Positions 1,419 to 59,847 of a stretch of DNA of 64,000 bases are shown piece by piece (the first letter of the stretch is position 1; every line of letters starts with the position of its first letter). The stretch covers positions 4,152-68,151 of the forward strand of contig JAYEIQ010000004.1 of the NCBI GenBank assembly GCA_034660175.1, written 5' to 3'. A model generated the notes under the pieces. The model had not been told where the DNA came from. It made no database searches and worked only from the letters and a program-made list of their open reading frames with translations. Source of the DNA: Patescibacteria group bacterium (lineage in GTDB: Bacteria > Patescibacteriota > Minisyncoccia > Moranbacterales > DUUL01). The translations under genes were made by a program, and so were the position numbers.

Positions 1419-2936
1419 ATGAAAAAAGAAAACAGAAGATTCTTTAAAATTATTAAAAGATTTGATAAGAGAAGCATCTGTGTAATCGGGGATTTGATGC
1501 TTGATCAATTTATTTGGGGAAAAGTTAAGAGGATTTCCCCAGAAGCTCCAGTTCCGGTTGTGCTTGCGCAGAAAGAGACCTTTGTCCCTGGTGGTGCAGG
1601 TAACACTGCATTTAACATCGCATCTCTGGGAGGTAAAGTTACTTTAGTTGGTGTTGTTGGTGATGATTTATGTGGTGAACAATTGAAAAAGGAGCTTGAA
1701 AAAAGGAGAGTAAATGTTATGGGGATTGTTGTTGACAAAGGAAGACTAACCACACAAAAAACTAGAATTGTGGCAGAGAATCAGCACGTTGTGCGTGTGG
1801 ACAGGGAAAATGTTGAGAAGGTTGATGCTAAGATTTCAAAAGATATTTTTGATTTTGTCGTTAAGAACATTACGTATTTTGATTGTTTGGTTGTTTCTGA
1901 CTATGCGAAAGGGATGATTGAGAAAGAGTTGGCGCAGGGACTTATTGGACTTGCCAAAGAAAATAAAAAAATGATTGTGGGGGACATTAAACCTTGGCAC
2001 GCGTCGTTTTTTCAAAATATAGATCTCATTACTCCAAATTTAAAGGAAGCTCAAGAAATTTCAAAGAGAGATAATGTTGAGAGGATGGGGAGGGTTATTC
2101 AGTCGAAATTACATTGTAATGTTATCATCACTAAAGGCGCAGGAGGATTAAGCGTTTTTGAGGGTAAAAATATTAGTAATTTCTCAACTCAAACGAGGGA
2201 GGTCTATGATGACCCAGATGTCTATTATAAAAAAGATGACAGTCCCTTGACCAAGGCGGATTTGGCGTCAGAGAAAGTTCTTCTTGATCGTCTCAAAGAA
2301 TTTGGTGATTTTGGATTTTTGTCTGAGGAAAGTGCCGATGATAAATCAAGGTTGGACAAAGAATATACTTGGATTATCGATCCATTGGATGGAACAATGG
2401 ACTTTATTCAAAAGACAGGAGAATTTTCAGTGATGGTTGGTTTGGTGAAAGGTGGGTTGCCAGTAATGGGTGTGGTCTATCAACCATCAATTGAGAAAAT
2501 ATATTTTGCAGAGAAAAGCAAAGGGGCTTTTGTGCGAATCGGTCAGGGAGCTGAGATCAAACTACGAGTTTCGCAAGTTTCTGACTTGAAGGAGGCTCGT
2601 TTGGTGGTGAGTCGCAATCACTTGAGCAAAAGGGATAGCTCTGTTGCAATTGATATGGGATTGGGTAACTATGTTCAAGCAGGCTCGAATGGAGTGAAGA
2701 TGTGTTTTATTGCTCAGGGGAATGCAGAACTGTTTTTCAACTCATGGACAGGATTTGGTGAATGGGACAGTTGTGGTCCGGATTTGATCTTGAGAGAGTC
2801 TGGAGGAGTGGTAACTGGTATGGATGGAAAACCGCTCAAATATAACAAAGAAGTTCCAAAAAGCGATCGTGGCATTGTTGCCAGCAACGGATTGCTTCAC
2901 GATGACATAATCAACAACTTTGCAAAAAGGAAATGA
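1419..2936 (+). CDS. fusion protein: HldE domain-I-like heptose-7-phosphate kinase (pfkB family, C-terminally truncated) fused to CysQ/inositol-monophosphatase-family phosphatase
   Basis: N-terminal 300 aa align to E. coli HldE kinase domain (ISPEAPVPVV, PGGAGNTAFNIASLGG, VVSDYAKG, TPNLKEA ... TQTREVYD); C-terminal half aligns to CysQ (EVYDDPDVYYKKDDSPLTKADLASEKVLL..., WIIDPLDGT, WDSCGP); junction at shared VYD; ribokinase GAGD motif absent. Confidence 0.7.
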   Translation: MKKENRRFFKIIKRFDKRSICVIGDLMLDQFIWGKVKRISPEAPVPVVLAQKETFVPGGAGNTAFNIASLGGKVTLVGVVGDDLCGEQLKKELEKRRVNVMGIVVDKGRLTTQKTRIVAENQHVVRVDRENVEKVDAKISKDIFDFVVKNITYFDCLVVSDYAKGMIEKELAQGLIGLAKENKKMIVGDIKPWHASFFQNIDLITPNLKEAQEISKRDNVERMGRVIQSKLHCNVIITKGAGGLSVFEGKNISNFSTQTREVYDDPDVYYKKDDSPLTKADLASEKVLLDRLKEFGDFGFLSEESADDKSRLDKEYTWIIDPLDGTMDFIQKTGEFSVMVGLVKGGLPVMGVVYQPSIEKIYFAEKSKGAFVRIGQGAEIKLRVSQVSDLKEARLVVSRNHLSKRDSSVAIDMGLGNYVQAGSNGVKMCFIAQGNAELFFNSWTGFGEWDSCGPDLILRESGGVVTGMDGKPLKYNKEVPKSDRGIVASNGLLHDDIINNFAKRK

Positions 2937-4618
2937 TTAGTCCTCATGGTGGCAAATTGGTTGACAAGACTTTTGTTGGTGATGCAAGTGCTGAGACTGC
3001 TCGATTGAGAAAGATTGTGGCAACATTGAAAATTGGTCCGAATCAAATTCAAGATATTGTCAATATAGCTCAAGGGGTGTTTTCGCCCCTTGATGGTTTT
3101 TTGAGGGAGAACGAATTTCTATCTGTTTTGAATGAAATGCGTTTGAATGATGGGACGGTTTGGCCGATTCCTATTGTTTTAGATGTTCTAACGGCTGAGA
3201 AAAAAAGATTAGAACAACAAGAAAAAATTCTTTTGATTGATTCAAAAAATCAGCCAGTTGCTTTTTTGTCGAACTCTTCTTTTTTTCGTTTTGATAAAGA
3301 AGAATTTGCTTTGAAAGTTTTTGGAATCACGGATCAAAATCATCCTGGAGTCAGGGATGTTTTTGAGATGAAGGAATTTTTAATTGGAGGGAAGATTGAG
3401 TTGATTGGGCAGTTTCGAGAAAGTGTTGTCCTAAAGAGTCCTGCAGAGATTAGAAGTGAATTTTTGAAGAGGGGTTGGGAATCAATTGTTGCTTTTCAAA
3501 CTCGCAATGTTCCACACAGGGGGCATGAATTTTTACAGAAGGAGGCTTTAAAAAAAGTAGACGGATTGTTTGTCCAGCCAGTGATTGGAGAAAAGAAAAT
3601 GGATGATTTCAAAGATGAGTATATTATTGGGAGCTATGAGATTTTGATTGAAAAGCATTTTCCTGCTGGTAAGGCAATGCTTGGTGTATTGCCACTCAAA
3701 ATGCGTTATGGTGGACCAAAGGAAGCGTTGCTTCATGCAATCATTCGCAAAAATTTTGGTTGCACCCATTTCATTGTTGGTCGTGATCATGCTGGGGTGG
3801 GTGATTTCTATCATCCAACGGAAGCACAGGAAATATTTGAACAATTTGGTCCAAGCGAGCTTGGAGTTGAGATCTTGAAATTTCCAGAGGTGGTGTTCGA
3901 CAAAGAAAAAGGAAAACACTGTTTTGTTGACGAATGCTCTGAATCGAATAGGATAAGGTTCAGTGGCACAAAGTTGAGAGATTTTGTGAAAAACAAGAAA
4001 GAGCCTCCAAGACACTTGATCAGGCGTGATGTGTTCGAGTTGCTCTCGAGTAGTGATAATTCGTTAGTTGATGAAAATTACAAAATGAAAACAAGCAAAA
4101 GAGGATTTGTTCTTTGGTTCACAGGATTGTCTGGTGCAGGAAAAAGCACTGTTGCGGATTTGGTTTTTGAGCATCTGAGGGGTAATGGCACCAGAATTGA
4201 GAGGCTTGATGGTGATGTTGTCCGGGAGAATTTGGCTCAAGATCTTGGTTTTTCCAAAAAAGATCGTGACGAGAACATTCGTCGAATTGGTTTTGTAGCA
4301 GACCTGCTTTCTCGCAATGGAGTGGGAGTGATTGCTTCTTTTATTTCTCCCTACCAAAAACAGCGAGATGAGCTGCGCAAAGAAGTCGAGAATTTCATTG
4401 AAGTTTTTGTGAATGCTCCTTTGGAGATCTGTGAGGAGCGAGATCCAAAGGGAATGTATAAAAAAGCTCGAGCGGGTGAGATCAAGAACTTTACTGGAAT
4501 TTCTGATTCCTATGACTCACCAAAAGACCCAGACATTGAACTGAGAACTGACAAGGGAACACCAAGAGAGTGTGTACAGCAGGTGATAGATTATTTAGAC
4601 GAAAAAGGCTTCATTTAG
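2933..4618 (+). CDS. bifunctional sulfate adenylyltransferase (ATP sulfurylase) / adenylylsulfate kinase (PAPS synthase)
   Basis: N-domain motifs QTRNVPHRGHEFL and VGRDHAGVGDFY (ATP sulfurylase); C-domain P-loop GLSGAGKSTVA and APS kinase-like region; ATG overlaps upstream TGA (ATGA) indicating translational coupling. Confidence 0.85.
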   Translation: MISPHGGKLVDKTFVGDASAETARLRKIVATLKIGPNQIQDIVNIAQGVFSPLDGFLRENEFLSVLNEMRLNDGTVWPIPIVLDVLTAEKKRLEQQEKILLIDSKNQPVAFLSNSSFFRFDKEEFALKVFGITDQNHPGVRDVFEMKEFLIGGKIELIGQFRESVVLKSPAEIRSEFLKRGWESIVAFQTRNVPHRGHEFLQKEALKKVDGLFVQPVIGEKKMDDFKDEYIIGSYEILIEKHFPAGKAMLGVLPLKMRYGGPKEALLHAIIRKNFGCTHFIVGRDHAGVGDFYHPTEAQEIFEQFGPSELGVEILKFPEVVFDKEKGKHCFVDECSESNRIRFSGTKLRDFVKNKKEPPRHLIRRDVFELLSSSDNSLVDENYKMKTSKRGFVLWFTGLSGAGKSTVADLVFEHLRGNGTRIERLDGDVVRENLAQDLGFSKKDRDENIRRIGFVADLLSRNGVGVIASFISPYQKQRDELRKEVENFIEVFVNAPLEICEERDPKGMYKKARAGEIKNFTGISDSYDSPKDPDIELRTDKGTPRECVQQVIDYLDEKGFI

Positions 4619-27425: not shown

Positions 27426-28536
27426 ATGACCTTTGACGAACTGAAGAAAAATACAAAGCAATTGAAAAATAAAACCCGCACTTTAGCGGACTGTCTTTGA
27501 CTGGGACGAAAAGAAAACAAAACTTGAGCAGTTGGAAAAACAAACGGGAGAAGGGGGTTTCTGGAATGACTATGAAAAGGCTGGCAAAATTTCCAAAGAA
27601 ATTGAATCTCTCAAAAAAGAAATTAAGTCTTGGGAGGGACTCAGTGCTCAAGTTGATGATCTGGAGAAGTTTGTGGGAGAGATCTATGCTGAAGATGCAG
27701 AAGAGATCGATTTGGCTAGTCAGCAAATCTTTGAAACTCAGCAGCAGTTTGATGTTCTTGAAAAGCAAACGCTTTTTTCTGAGCTACATGACAGAAATGA
27801 TGCAGTGCTTTCAATCCATGCAGGTGCAGGAGGAGATGATGCCCAAGATTGGGCAGGAATGCTTTTGAGAATGTTCTTGCGTTTTGCTGAGCGGAAGGAT
27901 TTTGGTGCAAAGATCATCAGCGAATCAAAGGGGGCTGAAGCTGGGATTAAAAGTGCAACAATCGAAATTTCTGGCAATTTGGCATTTGGAAATTTGCGAT
28001 CTGAAGCTGGAGTGCACAGATTGATTCGTCTTTCACCTTTTAATTCTGACAATTTGCGACAAACATCTTTTGCTCTGGTTGAAGTGATTCCTCTGTTGGA
28101 AGGAAATGATGAGATCGAAATTTCTCCAGCTGATTTGAAGATTGATACATATCGTTCAAGCGGAGCGGGAGGGCAAAGCGTGAACACGACTGACAGTGCT
28201 GTGCGTGTCACTCATGGGCCAACTGGAATTGTGGTTACTTGTCAAAATGAACGCTCACAGCTTCAAAATAAGGAAAAGGCATTGGCGATTTTGCGTTCAA
28301 AACTGATTCAGAGGAAAGAGCAGGAAGAAATTGACGAAACAAAAAAATTGAAAGGAGAACACAAAAGCGCTGAGTGGGGAAATCAGATTAGGTCATATGT
28401 TTTGCATCCATACAAAATGGTGAAAGATCACAGAACCGGAAATCAAACATCAGATGTTGAAAATGTGTTGGATGGGGATTTGGAAGAATTTGTTGAGAGT
28501 TGGTTGCGTTTGCAACAAAAGGGAGTTGAGGGGTAA
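27426..28536 (+). CDS. prfB: peptide chain release factor 2, expressed via programmed +1 ribosomal frameshift
   Basis: frame 0 from ATG 27426: MTFDELKKNTKQLKNKTRTLADCL-TGA; +1 frame continues DWDEKKTKLEQLEKQTGEGGFWND... through GGQ-containing RF2 body to 28536; canonical CTT TGA C at 27495-27501. Confidence 0.9.
27495..27501 (+). promoter_or_regulatory. RF2 programmed +1 frameshift site CTT TGA C
   Basis: exact CUU-UGA-C autoregulatory motif at codon 24 of prfB. Confidence 0.8.
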
Positions 28537-55882: not shown

Positions 55883-57583
55883 ATGAAACAGTCAAAATTG
55901 TTTGGAAAAACAACAAAAACAGTGTCAAAAGATTTGAAGGCACCAAGTCATAGATTTTTAATCCAAGGGGGTTTCATCGCAGAGTCTGTTGCTGGACGTT
56001 ACTATTTCTTGCCATTGGGAATGAAAGTTCGTGACAAAATTGTGAAGGTGATCGAAGATGCAATGAACAATTCTGGAGCTGAAAAGATGATCACTCCAGT
56101 GCTTCATCCACTTGAGCTTTGGCAGGAAACAAACAGAACAAGTACAGCAGGGTTTGAGCTTATGAGGCTGGAGGATAGAAGGGGTTCAGAATTTGCTCTT
56201 GGTGGAACCGCTGAAGAAATGATAGTTGACGTTGTTCGCAAATATAACATTAGCTATAAAGATCTGCCTTTTCATATCTATCAATTTTCTCAAAAATTTC
56301 GTGATGAGCTTCGTGCCCGAGGAGGGCTTTTGAGAGTGCGTGAATTTTTAATGAAAGATGGATATTCTTTTCATGTTGATGAGGAGGATTTCAAAAAAGA
56401 ATATGAAAAAATGAGGCAAGTTTATCTGGAGATCTTTGAGAAACTTGGAATGGATGCTTTTGTTGTTGAAGCGGACAACGGATATATTGGTGGAGATTAT
56501 TGTCATGAATTTGTTGTGGAATCTGAAAATGGTGAAAGTGTGTTCTTTGTTTCTGAGGACGGAAAATATGTTGCTCATGAGGATGTTGCAAAATTCAAGA
56601 GAGATGAAATAAATATCGATGAGCAAGAGAAAGAATTTGAGATCATCTCACAACCTGAGTGGGTCAAAACAATGGACGATGTCGCCAAGCACTATAAGCT
56701 TCCAACATCAAGATTTTTGAAAAACGTTGTATATAAGAACAGAGTCAGCGAAGAGATCGTGATTGCGACTATCAGGGGTGATTTGGAAGTCAACAAAACA
56801 AAATTGGAGCAGGTGTTGGATTGTGTTGGTGCTCTTGAGGAAGCGACGGCTGAGGATTTGGAAAAAATTGGAACAAAACCAGGATATGTTCATGCTTGGG
56901 GACATGAAAATTGCAAATATGTAGCCGATCTTTCACTTAAGACAGTCAAGAATTTCATTGGAGGACAAAAGGAAGAAAAAACAGATTCGATCAATGTGAA
57001 CTATGGTCGTGATTTTGAGCATGAAATAATTGATGACATTGCTTTGGCGAAGGATGGTTTTTTGACTGAAGATGGAAAACAAAAATTGACTCAGAAAAAA
57101 GGAATCGAGGTTGGAAACATTTTTCAACTTGGTCAGCACTACTCGTCAAAAATGAAAGCAACTTTTGTTGATGAGAAAGGTGAAGACAAGTTTTATTATA
57201 TGGGTTGTTATGGAATTGGAATTGGGCGGAACATGGCAACGGTTGTTGAGACGCATCACGACGAAAAGGGAATAGTGTGGCCTGAAGAAATTGCTCCTTT
57301 CAAAGTTCATATTGTTGAATTGGTAAGTGATGATGAAAATGTGAAAAAGACCGCACAGGACTTGTATGATGAATTGGTCGGTGTTGGAGTCGATGTGCTT
57401 TATGATGACAGAGCAGATCTCACTGCAGGTGAAAAGTTTGCAGACGCTGATCTCATTGGATGTTCATATCGAGTTGTGATCAGTGCAAAAACTCTTGAGA
57501 ATGAAAAGTTTGAATTGAAAAAGAGAAGTGAACAAGATGTGGAGATGTTGTCAAAAGAAGATCTCCTCAAAGTTCTAAAATAG
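55883..57583 (+). CDS. proS: proline--tRNA ligase
   Basis: class II aaRS motifs, ProRS N-terminal region (HRFLIQGGFIAESVAGRYYFLPLGMKVRDKI), C-terminal anticodon-binding domain; 566 aa. Confidence 0.9.
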   Translation: MKQSKLFGKTTKTVSKDLKAPSHRFLIQGGFIAESVAGRYYFLPLGMKVRDKIVKVIEDAMNNSGAEKMITPVLHPLELWQETNRTSTAGFELMRLEDRRGSEFALGGTAEEMIVDVVRKYNISYKDLPFHIYQFSQKFRDELRARGGLLRVREFLMKDGYSFHVDEEDFKKEYEKMRQVYLEIFEKLGMDAFVVEADNGYIGGDYCHEFVVESENGESVFFVSEDGKYVAHEDVAKFKRDEINIDEQEKEFEIISQPEWVKTMDDVAKHYKLPTSRFLKNVVYKNRVSEEIVIATIRGDLEVNKTKLEQVLDCVGALEEATAEDLEKIGTKPGYVHAWGHENCKYVADLSLKTVKNFIGGQKEEKTDSINVNYGRDFEHEIIDDIALAKDGFLTEDGKQKLTQKKGIEVGNIFQLGQHYSSKMKATFVDEKGEDKFYYMGCYGIGIGRNMATVVETHHDEKGIVWPEEIAPFKVHIVELVSDDENVKKTAQDLYDELVGVGVDVLYDDRADLTAGEKFADADLIGCSYRVVISAKTLENEKFELKKRSEQDVEMLSKEDLLKVLK

Positions 57584-57652: not shown

Positions 57653-58090
57653 ATGGCAAAGGTGATTACTCATGTTTCGGATGATGGCTATGAAATGTTG
57701 TGCAAGCAGAAAATTTTTTGGAACCTGGATGTGCGTGAAAAATATGAATTTGAGCAAGAGCGTATCAAAGGTGCAAAGCTGGTTCCAGCGACTCATTTTG
57801 ATGAAGAGTTCGAAAAATTGAAGGTGAAGAAAACTGACAAAATTGATCTCTATTGTCAAACTGTAAGCTGAAGTGTCTTCATTGCTGAAAAATTGAGAGG
57901 ACAAGGTTTCAAAAGTATTTTCAACTTGGAACTCGGAATTATTGACTGGACAGATCACAACAAAAGGCCATTTGATTTTTTTTGTACAAAGTTATGTGTT
58001 TGTTTTGAGCATGCTCCAAACAAAACTCAAAAAACATGGAAGAAGCAAAAAATACAAATTGTCATAATTGCAAATCCGAATTCACAATAG
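57653..58090 (+). pseudogene. single-domain rhodanese gene interrupted by in-frame TGA at the active-site loop
   Basis: ...KIDLYCQTVS-TGA(57869-57871)-SVFIAEKLRGQGFKSIFNLELGIIDW aligns to rhodanese CRSGNRSAKAAELLKEAGFKNVYNLEGGILAW with TGA at the conserved Arg; 8-T homopolymer 57984-57991 downstream. Confidence 0.5.
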
Positions 58091-58519
58091 AATCGGAGGA
58101 TTTTGAATTCTACAAAAAGATCAATGTGCCAGCGCAGATATTTTGTCCGCTTACATAAAAGACGTTGAAGATTCAATTTTGAAAGAGATCATCGAATGTG
58201 CCAATGAATCAAATTGGTCGTGTCATGGGTCGGGTGTTTTCAGAATGATTCCATCAGAATTTGAATTTTATGAAAGGATGAATATTTCTTTGCCGAGAAT
58301 TTGTTCTGATTGTTGTCATGCAGAGCGAGTCAAGTAAAGAAACCCAATGAAACTGCAAAAAAGGAACTGCATGTGTGATCACAAAAATTATAAAAACAGA
58401 CAGTTACACTTTTACGGGAATAAGCAGTGCGAAAACACTCTTGAATCAACATATTCACCAGACAGTCTTGAGATCGTCTATTGTAAAAATTGCTATCAAA
58501 AGGAAACAGAATAGTTTAT
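58016..58519 (+). other. string of short Cys-rich ORF fragments in different frames (probable gene remnant)
   Basis: three pieces each with CxxC pairs: ...NCHNCKSEFTIESEDFEFYKKINVPAQIFCP; ...CANESNWSCHGSGVFRMIPSEFEFYERMNISLPRICSDCC; ...NCMCDH...CENTLE...YCKNCYQKE; first two share a C-x2-C...SEFEFY-x-+-x-N...C module but lie in different frames. Confidence 0.3.
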
Positions 58520-58559
58520 TTATGAATTGTTTTAATATTACTATTAATTTCCCTTAAAC

Positions 58560-58772
58560 ATGGAAGAGCAAAGCGATATAAACAAAATGCAAAAACGAGC
58601 AATGGAGATTTGCAACAAATATGAAAAAATTGAGCTCAAATCATGGTCGGAGCACGAGATAGTAGATGTTTTTTGGTCTTCTCTGGTCCTTGCCAAAAAA
58701 CTATATGTCAATTTGAAAGAAAAGTTCTATCAAGCGATGAATGAGTTGGATGGGAAAATATCGAATAAATAA
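58560..58772 (+). CDS. hypothetical small protein
   Basis: 70-aa ORF upstream of mreB, no family. Confidence 0.3.
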   Translation: MEEQSDINKMQKRAMEICNKYEKIELKSWSEHEIVDVFWSSLVLAKKLYVNLKEKFYQAMNELDGKISNK

Positions 58773-58794: not shown

Positions 58795-59847
58795 ATGTTG
58801 AATAAAATATTTGGGAAAATTTCGAAAGATGTTGGTATAGACCTTGGTACAGCAAATACTCTTGTCTATGTGAAAGGCAAGGGAATTGTTATCAATGAGC
58901 CATCCGTTGTTGCTGTCAACAAAAGAACGGGACAGGTTTTGGCAATTGGCAAGGAAGCACGAAAGATGGTCGGCAAAACGCCTGGGCATATCATGGTGTC
59001 GCGTCCTCTTGTGGATGGTGTGGTTTCGGACTTTGAAACAACCGAGCAAATGTTGAAATACTTTATTGAGAAAGTTCATCGAGATTCATTTGCACTTTTG
59101 CCACGTCCAAGAGTAGTCGTGGGGATTCCATCAGGAGTCACGGAAGTTGAAAAGCGAGCAGTGGTTGATGCTACAATCAATGCTGGAGCAAGGCAAGCTT
59201 TTCTGATTGATGAACCAATGGCAGCAGCGATTGGGGCAAGACTTCCAGTTCAAGAACCGGCAGGAAACATGATTGTTGATATTGGTGGAGGAACAACTGA
59301 AGTTGCTGTAATCTCTTTGGGCGGTGTCGTGACAGCCAGAAGTCTTCGAATTGCAGGTGATGAAATGAATGAAGATGTGATCAGTTTTGCAAGAGACGAA
59401 TACAATCTTTTATTAGGTGAAAGGAGTGCAGAGGATATTAAAATTGCTATTGGCAGTGCATATCAATTGAATGAGAAACTTGACATGATGATCAGAGGAA
59501 GAGACCTGATCAGTGGTTTGCCAAAAGAATTGAAAGTGACAGACAAGGAAATTCGCACTGCACTTTCAAGATCTATCAAGATAATCATCAACAACATCAA
59601 AGCTGCAATCGAAGAAACACCTCCTGAGTTGATTGGAGACATCATGCAAAGCGGAATCATTCTTGCTGGTGGAGGAGGGTTAATCAGAGGACTTGATCGA
59701 CTGATTGCAGAACAAACAGAAATGCCAGTCAAGAGAATGGAAGATCCTTTGACCGCGGTTGTTAGGGGAACAGGAATTGTTTTGGAAGATCTTGATTCAA
59801 TGGTCGATGTTTTGATTGAATCAAGTGATGAGAAAAGATTGAGATAG
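58795..59847 (+). CDS. mreB: rod shape-determining actin homolog MreB
   Basis: IGIDLGTANTLVYV phosphate-1 motif, DIGGGTTEVAVIS, actin/Hsp70 fold; 350 aa. Confidence 0.9.
   Translation: MLNKIFGKISKDVGIDLGTANTLVYVKGKGIVINEPSVVAVNKRTGQVLAIGKEARKMVGKTPGHIMVSRPLVDGVVSDFETTEQMLKYFIEKVHRDSFALLPRPRVVVGIPSGVTEVEKRAVVDATINAGARQAFLIDEPMAAAIGARLPVQEPAGNMIVDIGGGTTEVAVISLGGVVTARSLRIAGDEMNEDVISFARDEYNLLLGERSAEDIKIAIGSAYQLNEKLDMMIRGRDLISGLPKELKVTDKEIRTALSRSIKIIINNIKAAIEETPPELIGDIMQSGIILAGGGGLIRGLDRLIAEQTEMPVKRMEDPLTAVVRGTGIVLEDLDSMVDVLIESSDEKRLR

What the first reader, a model, noticed from the sequence alone, without database searches (positions are those of the whole stretch)
57653..58519. Gene-decay patch: rhodanese with TGA at its active-site Arg codon, followed by frame-scattered Cys-rich ORF fragments
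The rhodanese aligns through the catalytic loop (YCQTVS-TGA-S vs C-R-S-G-N-R-S), so TGA replaces the conserved Arg (consistent with CGA to TGA). Because UGA is a bona fide stop here (prfB), this is a nonsense mutation. Downstream, three short ORFs in different frames each carry CxxC pairs. Two share a C-x2-C...SEFEFY-x-K/R-x-N...C module, suggesting a once-longer zinc-ribbon protein broken by frameshifts. Together with gmhA, the truncated HldE and the tRNA remnant, this indicates ongoing genome erosion.
Basis: partly seen in the sequence, partly recalled or inferred. Interest (0 to 1): 0.5.

Follow-up and report, generated by a model that had tools for sequence, protein, structure and literature searches.

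The report
Three adjacent decaying genes upstream of mreB
In this small Patescibacteria (Moranbacteria-like) genome, three neighbouring non-essential genes between proS and mreB are recent pseudogenes carrying five separate lesions: a rhodanese, a ~590-aa zinc-ribbon protein and a 107-aa helical protein. This is an ordinary though unusually compact snapshot of gene loss, not recoding.

Summary

**Rhodanese (57653-57975)**
- TGA at 57869-57871 sits where all 17 full-length homologs have Arg, encoded CGT in the relatives read.
- The invariant loop Gly is Val.
- A 1-nt deletion at about 57962-57965 puts the ancestral stop (57973-57975) out of frame.
- UGA is a true stop here: 14 of 52 long ORFs end in TGA, and prfB carries the CTT TGA C frameshift site.
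- No SECIS-like fold and no tRNA-Sec were found.

**Cys-rich ORFs**
- They are not three frameshifted pieces. They are the first ~38 and last ~130 codons of a ~590-aa zinc-ribbon family that is widespread in environmental metagenomes and in the few Patescibacteria-type records that carry a name.
- The two parts are joined by an out-of-frame internal deletion of about 1.3 kb, near 58140-58150.
- ORFs B and C share one frame and are split by a CAA-to-TAA nonsense codon (58335-58337).

**Downstream 70-aa ORF (58560-58772)**
- It is a 107-aa gene with an in-frame 111-nt deletion.

Closer relatives (L003, L137, L138) show each of these genes without these lesions, in contigs that overlap to give the order proS, rhodanese, zinc-ribbon gene, 107-aa gene, mreB. 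The frames are otherwise open and pairwise dN/dS is about 0.1, so the decay is recent. The feature is ordinary and of low interest. The GenBank record annotates at least three of the fragments as ordinary CDSs.

The parts
57653..57975 (+). Rhodanese pseudogene (single-domain, ancestrally ~107 aa), from the ATG to the ancestral stop, which is now out of frame
   Evidence: Pfam PF00581 spans residues 24-101. 17 homologs of 105-111 aa align end to end. blastn of the intact L002 gene (153-476) matches window 57653-57975.
57863..57865 (+). GTA (Val71) at a Gly that is invariant in all 17 homologs (active-site loop C-x-x-G-x-R-S)
57869..57871 (+). In-frame TGA replacing the invariant loop Arg (CGT in L002, L003 and L004)
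57962..57965 (+). A-run where 1 nt is missing relative to L002, L003 and L004 (conserved G-K-K codons). The ancestral stop TGA 57973-57975 falls out of frame, and the current frame runs on to TAA 58088-58090.
   Evidence: Restoring one base gives ...HNKKAI*, against HGKKVI* in P0001.
58036..58149 (+). 5' remnant of the ~590-aa zinc-ribbon gene (family residues ~1-38: MEEAKNTNCHNCKSEFTIESEDFEFYKKINVPAQIFCP)
   Evidence: tblastn with P0019-P0024 residues 7-37. Alignment A3. L003 has the homologous start MKEAKNKSCQNCKDEFTI directly after its intact rhodanese.
58140..58152 (+). Junction of an internal, out-of-frame deletion of about 430 codons (~1.3 kb). TTTTGTCCG reads as FCP of the N-part and as L-S of the C-part, which suggests a microhomology-mediated deletion (inferred).
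   Evidence: The N- and C-terminal tblastn matches abut and overlap at 58134-58149 in different frames, and no match to family residues ~38-460 exists anywhere in the window. Alignment to L137 and L138.
58134..58514 (+). 3' remnant of the zinc-ribbon gene (family residues ~465-594), one frame, natural stop TAG 58512-58514
   Evidence: phmmer E 8e-32, query 3-121 against residues 465-588 of 590-aa proteins. 64-67% aa identity to the uninterrupted ORFs of L138 and L137.
58335..58337 (+). In-frame TAA nonsense codon where L138 has CAA and L137 has CAG (Gln). It splits the 3' remnant into 'ORF B' and 'ORF C'.
58560..58772 (+). 70-aa ORF: a 107-aa helical-protein gene (family of P0170/P0171) with an in-frame 111-nt (37-codon) internal deletion at about 58646-58649
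55883..57583 (+). proS (prolyl-tRNA synthetase), intact upstream anchor of the conserved gene order
58795..59847 (+). mreB, intact downstream anchor (99% aa identity to the partial mreB genes of L137 and L138)

Best explanation
The 1.2-kb stretch between proS and mreB holds three consecutive, recently inactivated genes.

The ancestral order in this sub-lineage was proS, rhodanese (~107 aa), zinc-ribbon protein (~590 aa), small helical protein (107 aa), mreB. In the window's organism:
- **Rhodanese:** a premature TGA at the active-site-loop Arg, a Gly-to-Val change two codons earlier, and a 1-nt deletion that removes its normal stop.
- **Zinc-ribbon gene:** lost its middle ~430 codons through one out-of-frame deletion, probably at a short microhomology, and gained a CAA-to-TAA nonsense codon in the remaining 3' part.
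- **107-aa gene:** lost 37 internal codons in frame.

No recoding is involved. UGA is read as stop by RF2, so the products are a 72-aa rhodanese stump and short Cys-rich peptides at most. The mechanism is ordinary mutational decay with deletional bias under relaxed selection, on three dispensable genes wedged between two essential ones.

Shown: the lesions, their positions, and the same genes without these lesions in relatives. Inferred: that the genes are non-functional, that the decay is recent, and that the deletions arose by microhomology.
For: **Lesions and family membership**
- All 17 rhodanese homologs have Arg and Gly where the window has TGA and Val. Their codon is CGT in the relatives read.
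- The 1-nt deletion is seen against L002, L003 and L004.
- The B+C translation matches the last ~125 residues of ~590-aa proteins: 617 hits at E<=1e-3, best 8e-32. ORF A matches their first ~37 residues, and the middle is absent from the window.
- TAA stands where the relatives have CAA or CAG.
- orf70 against the 107-aa P0170/P0171 shows a 37-residue gap flanked by 76-79% identity.

**The same genes without these lesions in closer relatives**
- L003: end of proS, intact rhodanese, start of the zinc-ribbon gene.
- L137 and L138: uninterrupted 3' part of the zinc-ribbon ORF (running off the contig end in L137), then the 107-aa gene, then mreB at 99% aa identity.

**Standard genetic code**
- 14 of 52 long ORFs end in TGA.
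- prfB has CTT TGA C.
- No tRNA-Sec and no SECIS-like fold.

**Recent decay**
- One stop in about 105 rhodanese codons and one in about 125 zinc-ribbon codons. Non-coding frames of this window carry roughly one stop per 10-45 codons.
- Pairwise dN/dS to relatives is about 0.1.

**Relaxed constraint**
- 7 window-specific replacements at 42 (near-)invariant family positions of the zinc-ribbon remnant. L137 and L138 have 2 each (of 50 and 42 positions), both shared.

**Assembly**
- An independently assembled Logan contig (SRR26901924) is 100% identical over 12.2 kb.

**Context**
- Pseudogenes were reported at about 5-10% of coding genes in two Parcubacteria MAGs (PMC11188291).
Against: - No reads were available. 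The NCBI MAG contig and the Logan contig may derive from the same sequencing run, so they may be two assemblies of one read set rather than independent samples. The organism was found in one sample only.
- The 1-nt deletion lies in an A-run and could be a sequencing error by itself.
- The MAG consensus could represent one strain variant in a population that also holds intact alleles.
- Loss of function is inferred from sequence. No expression or activity data exist.
- The relatives are not very close (dS is about 1 or higher), so the order and timing of the lesions cannot be resolved.
- No single contig read here carries all five genes. The ancestral order is pieced together from L003 and from L137/L138.
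Confidence: 0.88

Rival explanations
1. Assembly or sequencing artefact, or a minority-strain consensus: the living population carries intact genes and the lesions come from mis-assembly (collapsed deletions) and base-call errors.
For: - Only one sample carries this organism.
- The 1-nt deletion is in a homopolymer.
- MAG consensus sequences can mix strains (general knowledge).
Against: - There are five different lesions of four kinds. CGT to TGA needs two substitutions.
- The copy also carries extra replacements at invariant residues, which errors would not concentrate here: G71V and 7 of 42 conserved zinc-ribbon positions.
- Two different assemblers give identical sequence over 12.2 kb.
- The flanking proS, mreB and mreC are clean.
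Confidence: 0.07
2. Recoding: the UGA in the rhodanese is decoded (selenocysteine, read-through, or UGA as Gly or Trp as in some Patescibacteria and related lineages), giving a functional enzyme.
For: - Selenoprotein rhodaneses exist: NCBIfam NF041203 'rhodanese-related (seleno)protein' gives a weak sub-threshold hit (30 bits against a cut-off of 115).
- Some Patescibacteria-related lineages (Gracilibacteria, Absconditabacteria) read UGA as Gly (my knowledge; see also PMC8629427 listed, not read).
Against: - The TGA is at the Arg position, not the catalytic Cys, and all 17 homologs have Arg.
- 14 of 52 long ORFs terminate at TGA, and the long ORFs contain no in-frame TGA.
- prfB is present with its UGA-dependent frameshift site.
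- The downstream RNA folds no better than shuffles (z = +1.38). There are no Rfam SECIS hits and no tRNA-Sec in the window.
- The same gene has G71V and a frameshifted 3' end.
Confidence: 0.01
3. The remnants are functional mini-genes: the N-plus-C zinc-ribbon fusion, the 55-64-aa Cys-rich ORFs or the shortened 70-aa ORF are expressed as new small proteins, as the GenBank annotation implies.
For: - NCBI annotates at least the 72-aa, 55-aa and 61-aa ORFs as CDSs.
- The 111-nt deletion in orf70 is in frame and leaves an intact ORF with its start region and stop.
- The zinc-binding CxxC pairs of the C-terminal module are partly retained.
Against: - The N and C parts are out of frame, and the C part is interrupted by TAA.
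- Family-invariant residues next to the Cys ligands are replaced only in this copy: R to C, H to Y, F to L, T to S.
- No homolog with this short architecture was seen. The short database hits I read that are complete at their 3' end are cut by contig ends (P0030, L137).
- For orf70 the deletion removes the second of the four predicted helices and most of the loop after it (residues 30-66 of the 107-aa homolog).
Confidence: 0.04

Closest known systems
Single-domain rhodanese sulfurtransferases (Pfam PF00581; GlpE/PspE-type, active-site loop C-x-x-G-x-R-S/T)
   Same: Domain match across the whole ORF. The catalytic Cys68 and the loop length are retained. There is an orthologous position between proS and mreB in at least five Moraniibacteriota-type relatives.
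   Different: The loop Arg is replaced by a stop, the loop Gly by Val, and the 3' end is frameshifted. It is therefore a pseudogene, not a working member.
Uncharacterised ~590-aa double zinc-ribbon family of environmental metagenomes and Patescibacteria-type MAGs (e.g. MAF79457.1, HEY4525717.1 'hypothetical protein'). Only a weak Pfam PF13451 zf_Tbcl (probable treble-clef) hit at the N-terminus.
   Same: The first ~38 and last ~130 residues align with 46-51% identity, including the CxxC pairs and the F-x-I-x3-E/D-x-x-F-Y module at both ends.
   Different: About 430 central codons are missing, the two parts are out of frame, there is an internal TAA, and 7 conserved residues are replaced. The family itself has no Pfam or NCBIfam model above threshold and no known function.
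Bacterial pseudogene formation under deletional bias (Kuo and Ochman 2010, cited in PMC11188291). Pseudogenes were reported at about 5-10% of coding genes in two Parcubacteria MAGs.
   Same: A mix of nonsense mutations, a small indel and larger deletions in dispensable genes, with the essential neighbours untouched.
   Different: It is unusually dense: five lesions in three adjacent genes within 1.1 kb. I did not test whether that exceeds the genome's background.
Selenoprotein rhodaneses (NCBIfam NF041203 rhodanese_LYCAU)
   Same: A rhodanese fold with an in-frame UGA.
   Different: There the UGA is thought to replace the catalytic Cys and to need a SECIS element and Sec machinery (my knowledge). 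Here it replaces Arg, with no SECIS-like structure and no tRNA-Sec found.

Membership tests
Rhodanese-like domain (PF00581), functional sulfurtransferase | Sequence match to the domain profile above the curated threshold | tested here: met
   46.3 bits against a gathering score of 22.2, residues 24-101, with the stop written as X
Rhodanese-like domain (PF00581), functional sulfurtransferase | Uninterrupted ORF covering the domain | tested here: not met
   TGA at codon 73. A 1-nt deletion at codons 104-105 shifts the ancestral stop out of frame.
Rhodanese-like domain (PF00581), functional sulfurtransferase | Intact active-site loop C-x-x-G-x-R-(S/T) as in its own orthologs | tested here: not met
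   The window has C-Q-T-V-S-stop-S. All 17 orthologs have G and R.
Selenoprotein (Sec-decoded UGA) | Stable SECIS hairpin immediately 3' of the UGA | tested here: not met
   MFE -9 kcal/mol, z = +1.38; 192 of 200 shuffles fold at least as well. No Rfam hit.
Selenoprotein (Sec-decoded UGA) | tRNA-Sec and selA/selB/selD in the genome | tested here: inconclusive
   No tRNA-Sec in the 64-kb window. The rest of the genome was not available.
Selenoprotein (Sec-decoded UGA) | UGA aligned with Cys, or conserved as UGA, in homologs | tested here: not met
   Aligned with Arg in 17 of 17 homologs
Alternative genetic code (UGA as sense: tables 4 and 25) | UGA absent as a terminator, frequent in-frame UGA, no RF2 | tested here: not met
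   14 of 52 long ORFs end in TGA. prfB is present with CTT TGA C.
~590-aa double zinc-ribbon family (unnamed) | N-terminal CxxC...FY...CPxCR module and C-terminal CxxC-rich module | tested here: met
~590-aa double zinc-ribbon family (unnamed) | Central ~430-residue region and one continuous reading frame | tested here: not met
   No match to residues ~38-460 anywhere in the window. The two ends are in different frames, and there is an internal TAA.
MazG-like all-alpha NTP pyrophosphohydrolase (for the 107-aa family of orf70) | Significant sequence or fold match to MazG-type proteins | tested here: inconclusive
   No Pfam or NCBIfam hit. PDB sequence hits are weak only: 2gta E 0.025, 2q73 E 0.15. 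The AF2 model has four helices at pLDDT 69. Foldseek against PDB gave nothing at E<=0.001.

The most novel reading that the evidence does not exclude
The joint decay of three adjacent genes could be more than coincidence. It could mean that the rhodanese, the ~590-aa zinc-ribbon protein and the 107-aa helical protein form one functional module in this Moranbacteria sub-lineage, for example a sulfur-transfer or thiolation system. Loss of one part would then have released the other two from selection. That would give a first functional handle on a large, uncharacterised zinc-ribbon family.

Against this: none of 81 loci fetched with other family members has a rhodanese or a 107-aa homolog within the flanks fetched (up to 4 kb each side where the contig allowed). 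More distant relatives also keep the rhodanese alone between proS and mreB.
Probability: 0.07. Interest if true: 0.4.

Novelty: new member of a known kind. Interest (0 to 1): 0.15.

Why it matters
- **Annotation hygiene.** GenBank lists at least three of the fragments as ordinary CDSs. These are a 72-aa 'rhodanese-like domain-containing protein' MEA2006664.1, the 55-aa hypothetical protein MEA2006666.1 and the 61-aa U9O20_00700. They should be flagged as pseudogenes.
- **A dated example of gene loss.** Nonsense mutations, a small indel and microhomology-type deletions are removing dispensable genes from an already small Patescibacteria genome, while the essential neighbours (proS, the mreBCD-PBP2 genes) stay intact.
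- **A check against over-interpretation.** An in-frame UGA in a Patescibacteria-group gene need not signal recoding.
- It does not open a new biological question.

Tried and rejected
1. **UGA as Gly or Trp (tables 25 and 4), my first suspicion for a low-GC Patescibacteria-like window.** Rejected by stop-codon usage and prfB.
2. **Selenocysteine.** Rejected.
3. **Word-indexed protein search with the concatenated Cys-rich translation.** It found nothing. The exhaustive phmmer search was needed.
4. **Handing the B+C DNA reference to the representative search.** It failed because of the internal stop. I re-entered the sequence with X.
5. **A mobile or viral origin for the extra 800 bp.** One marginal viral-contig hit only. 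No flanking repeats of note. Sister contigs show it is vertically inherited gene content.
6. **A conserved link between the rhodanese or the 107-aa gene and the zinc-ribbon family.** No co-occurrence in 81 loci.
7. **Naming the 107-aa family as MazG-like.** Only weak PDB sequence hits and an uninformative fold search, so it is left as a lead.
8. **Looking for the same organism in other samples through exact MreB and rhodanese-stump look-ups.** Only SRR26901924 was found, so population-level confirmation was not possible.
9. **Accelerated dN in the window lineage.** dS is saturated (about 1 or higher), so only a qualitative 'recent decay' statement is possible.

Full report
**What is in the sequence**

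The window has about 38% G+C and long ORFs on both strands. The finding lies between proS (55883-57583) and mreB (58795-59847), which is followed by mreC, mreD, a PBP2-type gene and yebC. NCBI holds the same sequence as a 'Patescibacteria group bacterium' MAG contig of 97.6 kb. The closest named relatives are Candidatus Moraniibacteriota MAGs. A Logan assembly of run SRR26901924 is 100% identical over 12,219 bases spanning the region.

**Genetic code**

My first suspicion for a Patescibacteria-like genome with an in-frame TGA was a reassigned UGA. That is excluded:
- 14 of 52 long ORFs end in TGA and none needs an internal TGA.
- prfB is present with the classical autoregulatory +1 frameshift site CTT TGA C at 27496-27502.
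- ARAGORN finds only tRNA-Thr and tRNA-Gly, and no tRNA-Sec.
- The 71 nt from the TGA onward fold no better than shuffled sequence: -9 kcal/mol, z = +1.38.
- Rfam gives nothing relevant, even at E<=10.

**The rhodanese**

The ORF from 57653 stops at TGA 57869-57871, but Pfam's Rhodanese profile matches straight across it (residues 24-101, 46 bits).

Seventeen full-length homologs of 105-111 aa, up to 75% identical, align end to end:
- All 17 have Arg at the TGA column.
- All 17 have Gly where the window has Val71. The loop reads C-Q-T-V-S-stop-S, against C-Q-T-G-S-R-S in the closest homolog.
- At the DNA level the relatives read here have CGT, so at least two substitutions separate them from TGA.

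Near the 3' end the window lacks one base in an A-run (57962-57965) relative to L002, L003 and L004. Restoring it gives ...HNKKAI-TGA against ...HGKKVI-TGA. The ancestral stop is therefore still visible at 57973-57975, out of frame.

The gene thus carries two independent inactivating lesions plus a damaging loop substitution.

**The Cys-rich ORFs**

ORF A (58036-58158) is in one frame. ORFs B (58143-58337) and C (58347-58514) share another frame and are separated only by TAA 58335-58337.

A word-indexed search with the concatenated translation found nothing. An exhaustive phmmer search with B+X+C found 617 proteins at E<=1e-3, best 8e-32. The typical hit is about 590 aa, and the query covers its last ~125 residues without a break across the TAA. 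ORF A aligns with residues 1-38 of the same proteins.

Nothing in the 64-kb window matches residues ~38-460. So about 430 codons (~1.3 kb) are deleted, and the two ends are joined out of frame near 58140-58150. There the string TTTTGTCCG can be read as the end of the N-part (F-C-P) and as the start of the C-part (L-S, against L-P in relatives). This is consistent with a microhomology-mediated deletion, which is an inference.

Most full-length hits match the query in two stretches.

The family:
- It is abundant in environmental metagenomes, with at least 589 confirmed loci.
- It is essentially absent from viral contigs.
- It has no Pfam or NCBIfam model above threshold, only a weak PF13451 treble-clef hit.
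- The named records call it 'hypothetical protein'.

**The next ORF is damaged too**

The 70-aa ORF at 58560-58772 matches two 107-aa proteins at 76-79% identity on either side of a 37-residue gap. At the DNA level this is an in-frame 111-nt deletion at about 58646-58649.

I could not name that family:
- No Pfam or NCBIfam hit.
- Weak PDB sequence hits at E 0.025-0.28.
- A four-helix AF2 model at pLDDT 69.
- An uninformative fold search.

**Comparative anatomy**

Three short contigs from closer relatives give the ancestral state:
- L003 carries the end of proS, an intact rhodanese (P0001) and then the start of the zinc-ribbon gene, MKEAKNKSCQNCKDEFTI.
- L137 and L138 carry an uninterrupted 3' part of the zinc-ribbon ORF, the 107-aa gene and mreB at 99% amino-acid identity to the window.
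- At the TAA position they have CAG and CAA (Gln), a single C-to-T change.

More distant relatives (L004, L006, L008, L009, L012) have the rhodanese directly followed by mreB. The zinc-ribbon and 107-aa pair is therefore specific to the sub-lineage. Neither the rhodanese nor the 107-aa gene accompanies the zinc-ribbon family in 81 other loci.

**Timing and constraint**

- Apart from the listed lesions the frames are open: one stop in about 105 and one in about 125 codons. Non-coding frames of this window carry a stop roughly every 10-45 codons.
- Pairwise dN/dS to relatives is about 0.1 for all three genes, with dS saturated. Most of the divergence therefore accrued under purifying selection, and the inactivation is recent.
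- Relaxation has begun. The zinc-ribbon remnant has 7 window-specific replacements at 42 (near-)invariant family positions: P to Q, T to I, D to A, R to C, H to Y, F to L and T to S. L137 and L138 have 2 each, both shared.

**Interpretation**

This is a compact patch of ordinary gene decay: three dispensable genes and five lesions, lying between essential genes that remain intact. There are two nonsense codons, one 1-nt deletion, one ~1.3-kb deletion and one 111-nt deletion.

The corrections are:
- There are two frames, not three.
- The zinc-ribbon gene was broken by a large deletion plus a nonsense codon, not by frameshifts.
- The rhodanese has additional lesions.
- The patch extends to 58772.

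ORF 1419-2936 is a complete fusion of a PfkB kinase and an inositol-monophosphatase-like domain, next to an ATP-sulfurylase/APS-kinase gene.

**Limits**

- I had no reads.
- The two assemblies may derive from one run, and the organism was found in one sample only. A strain-level polymorphism or a homopolymer error for the 1-nt deletion cannot be excluded.
- The substitutions, the large deletions and the extra changes at conserved residues argue against an artefact.
- Pseudogene fractions of about 5-10% of coding genes have been reported for two Parcubacteria MAGs (PMC11188291), so the phenomenon is expected.
- Whether this density exceeds the genome's own background was not tested.

**Verdict**

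The feature is real, well explained and ordinary, and the interest is low. The practical consequence is that at least three GenBank CDSs should be pseudogene features: MEA2006664.1, MEA2006666.1 and U9O20_00700. The 64-aa ORF B should be checked as well, since I did not see its entry.

Noticed in passing
window 27427-28536: prfB (RF2) with the canonical programmed +1 frameshift site CTT TGA C at 27496-27502. The 0-frame ORF starts at ATG 27427, and the main ORF is listed from 27532.
   Followed up: partly
window 1419-4618: ORF 1419-2936 (505 aa) is a fusion of a PfkB-family kinase and an inositol-monophosphatase/CysQ-like domain. It overlaps by 4 nt a fusion of PUA, ATP sulfurylase and APS kinase (2933-4618). 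This looks like a PAPS-making or PAPS-recycling unit ahead of what may be a surface-glycan gene cluster (the downstream ORFs were not scanned), not a truncated HldE.
   Followed up: partly
loci L056-L135 (e.g. L117 5780-5893, L086 9480-9593, L070 6225-6329): The ~590-aa double zinc-ribbon family often occurs as several copies per locus, some directly in tandem. There were 175 N-module and 235 C-module tblastn hits in 81 loci. The family has no Pfam or NCBIfam model and no known function, despite at least 589 metagenome loci.
   Followed up: no
L002 (RCNE010287601.1) against L003: Both contigs encode the identical rhodanese P0001 but diverge completely about 5 nt after its stop. L003 continues into the zinc-ribbon gene, while L002 continues into unrelated sequence with a minus-strand ORF. 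This may be a chimeric contig or a rearranged strain.
   Followed up: no
window 57999-58024: Near-perfect 26-nt palindrome TTTGTTTTGAGCATGCTCCAAACAAA in the spacer between the rhodanese remnant and the zinc-ribbon remnant. It is only partly conserved in L003 and is not followed by a T-run. Its function is unknown.
   Followed up: no
window 57653-58772 (GenBank MEA2006664.1, MEA2006666.1, U9O20_00700): The public annotation lists at least three of the pseudogene fragments as ordinary protein-coding genes: a 72-aa 'rhodanese-like domain-containing protein' and 55-aa and 61-aa hypothetical proteins.
   Followed up: yes
window 58560-58772; P0170, P0171: The 107-aa helical family has only two database relatives at E<=0.01. 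Its best (weak) PDB sequence hit is B. subtilis YpjD (2gta, E 0.025), which I recall as MazG-like. A conserved E-H-E-x-x-D motif survives the deletion.
   Followed up: partly
L009, L010 (CAYMNT010000016.1, CAZDHE010000001.1): Two MAGs labelled 'uncultured Bdellovibrionales bacterium' carry the Moraniibacteriota-type rhodanese, and L009 also has it followed by mreB and mreC (54-55% and 77% identity). This suggests a taxonomic mislabel or bin contamination.
   Followed up: no
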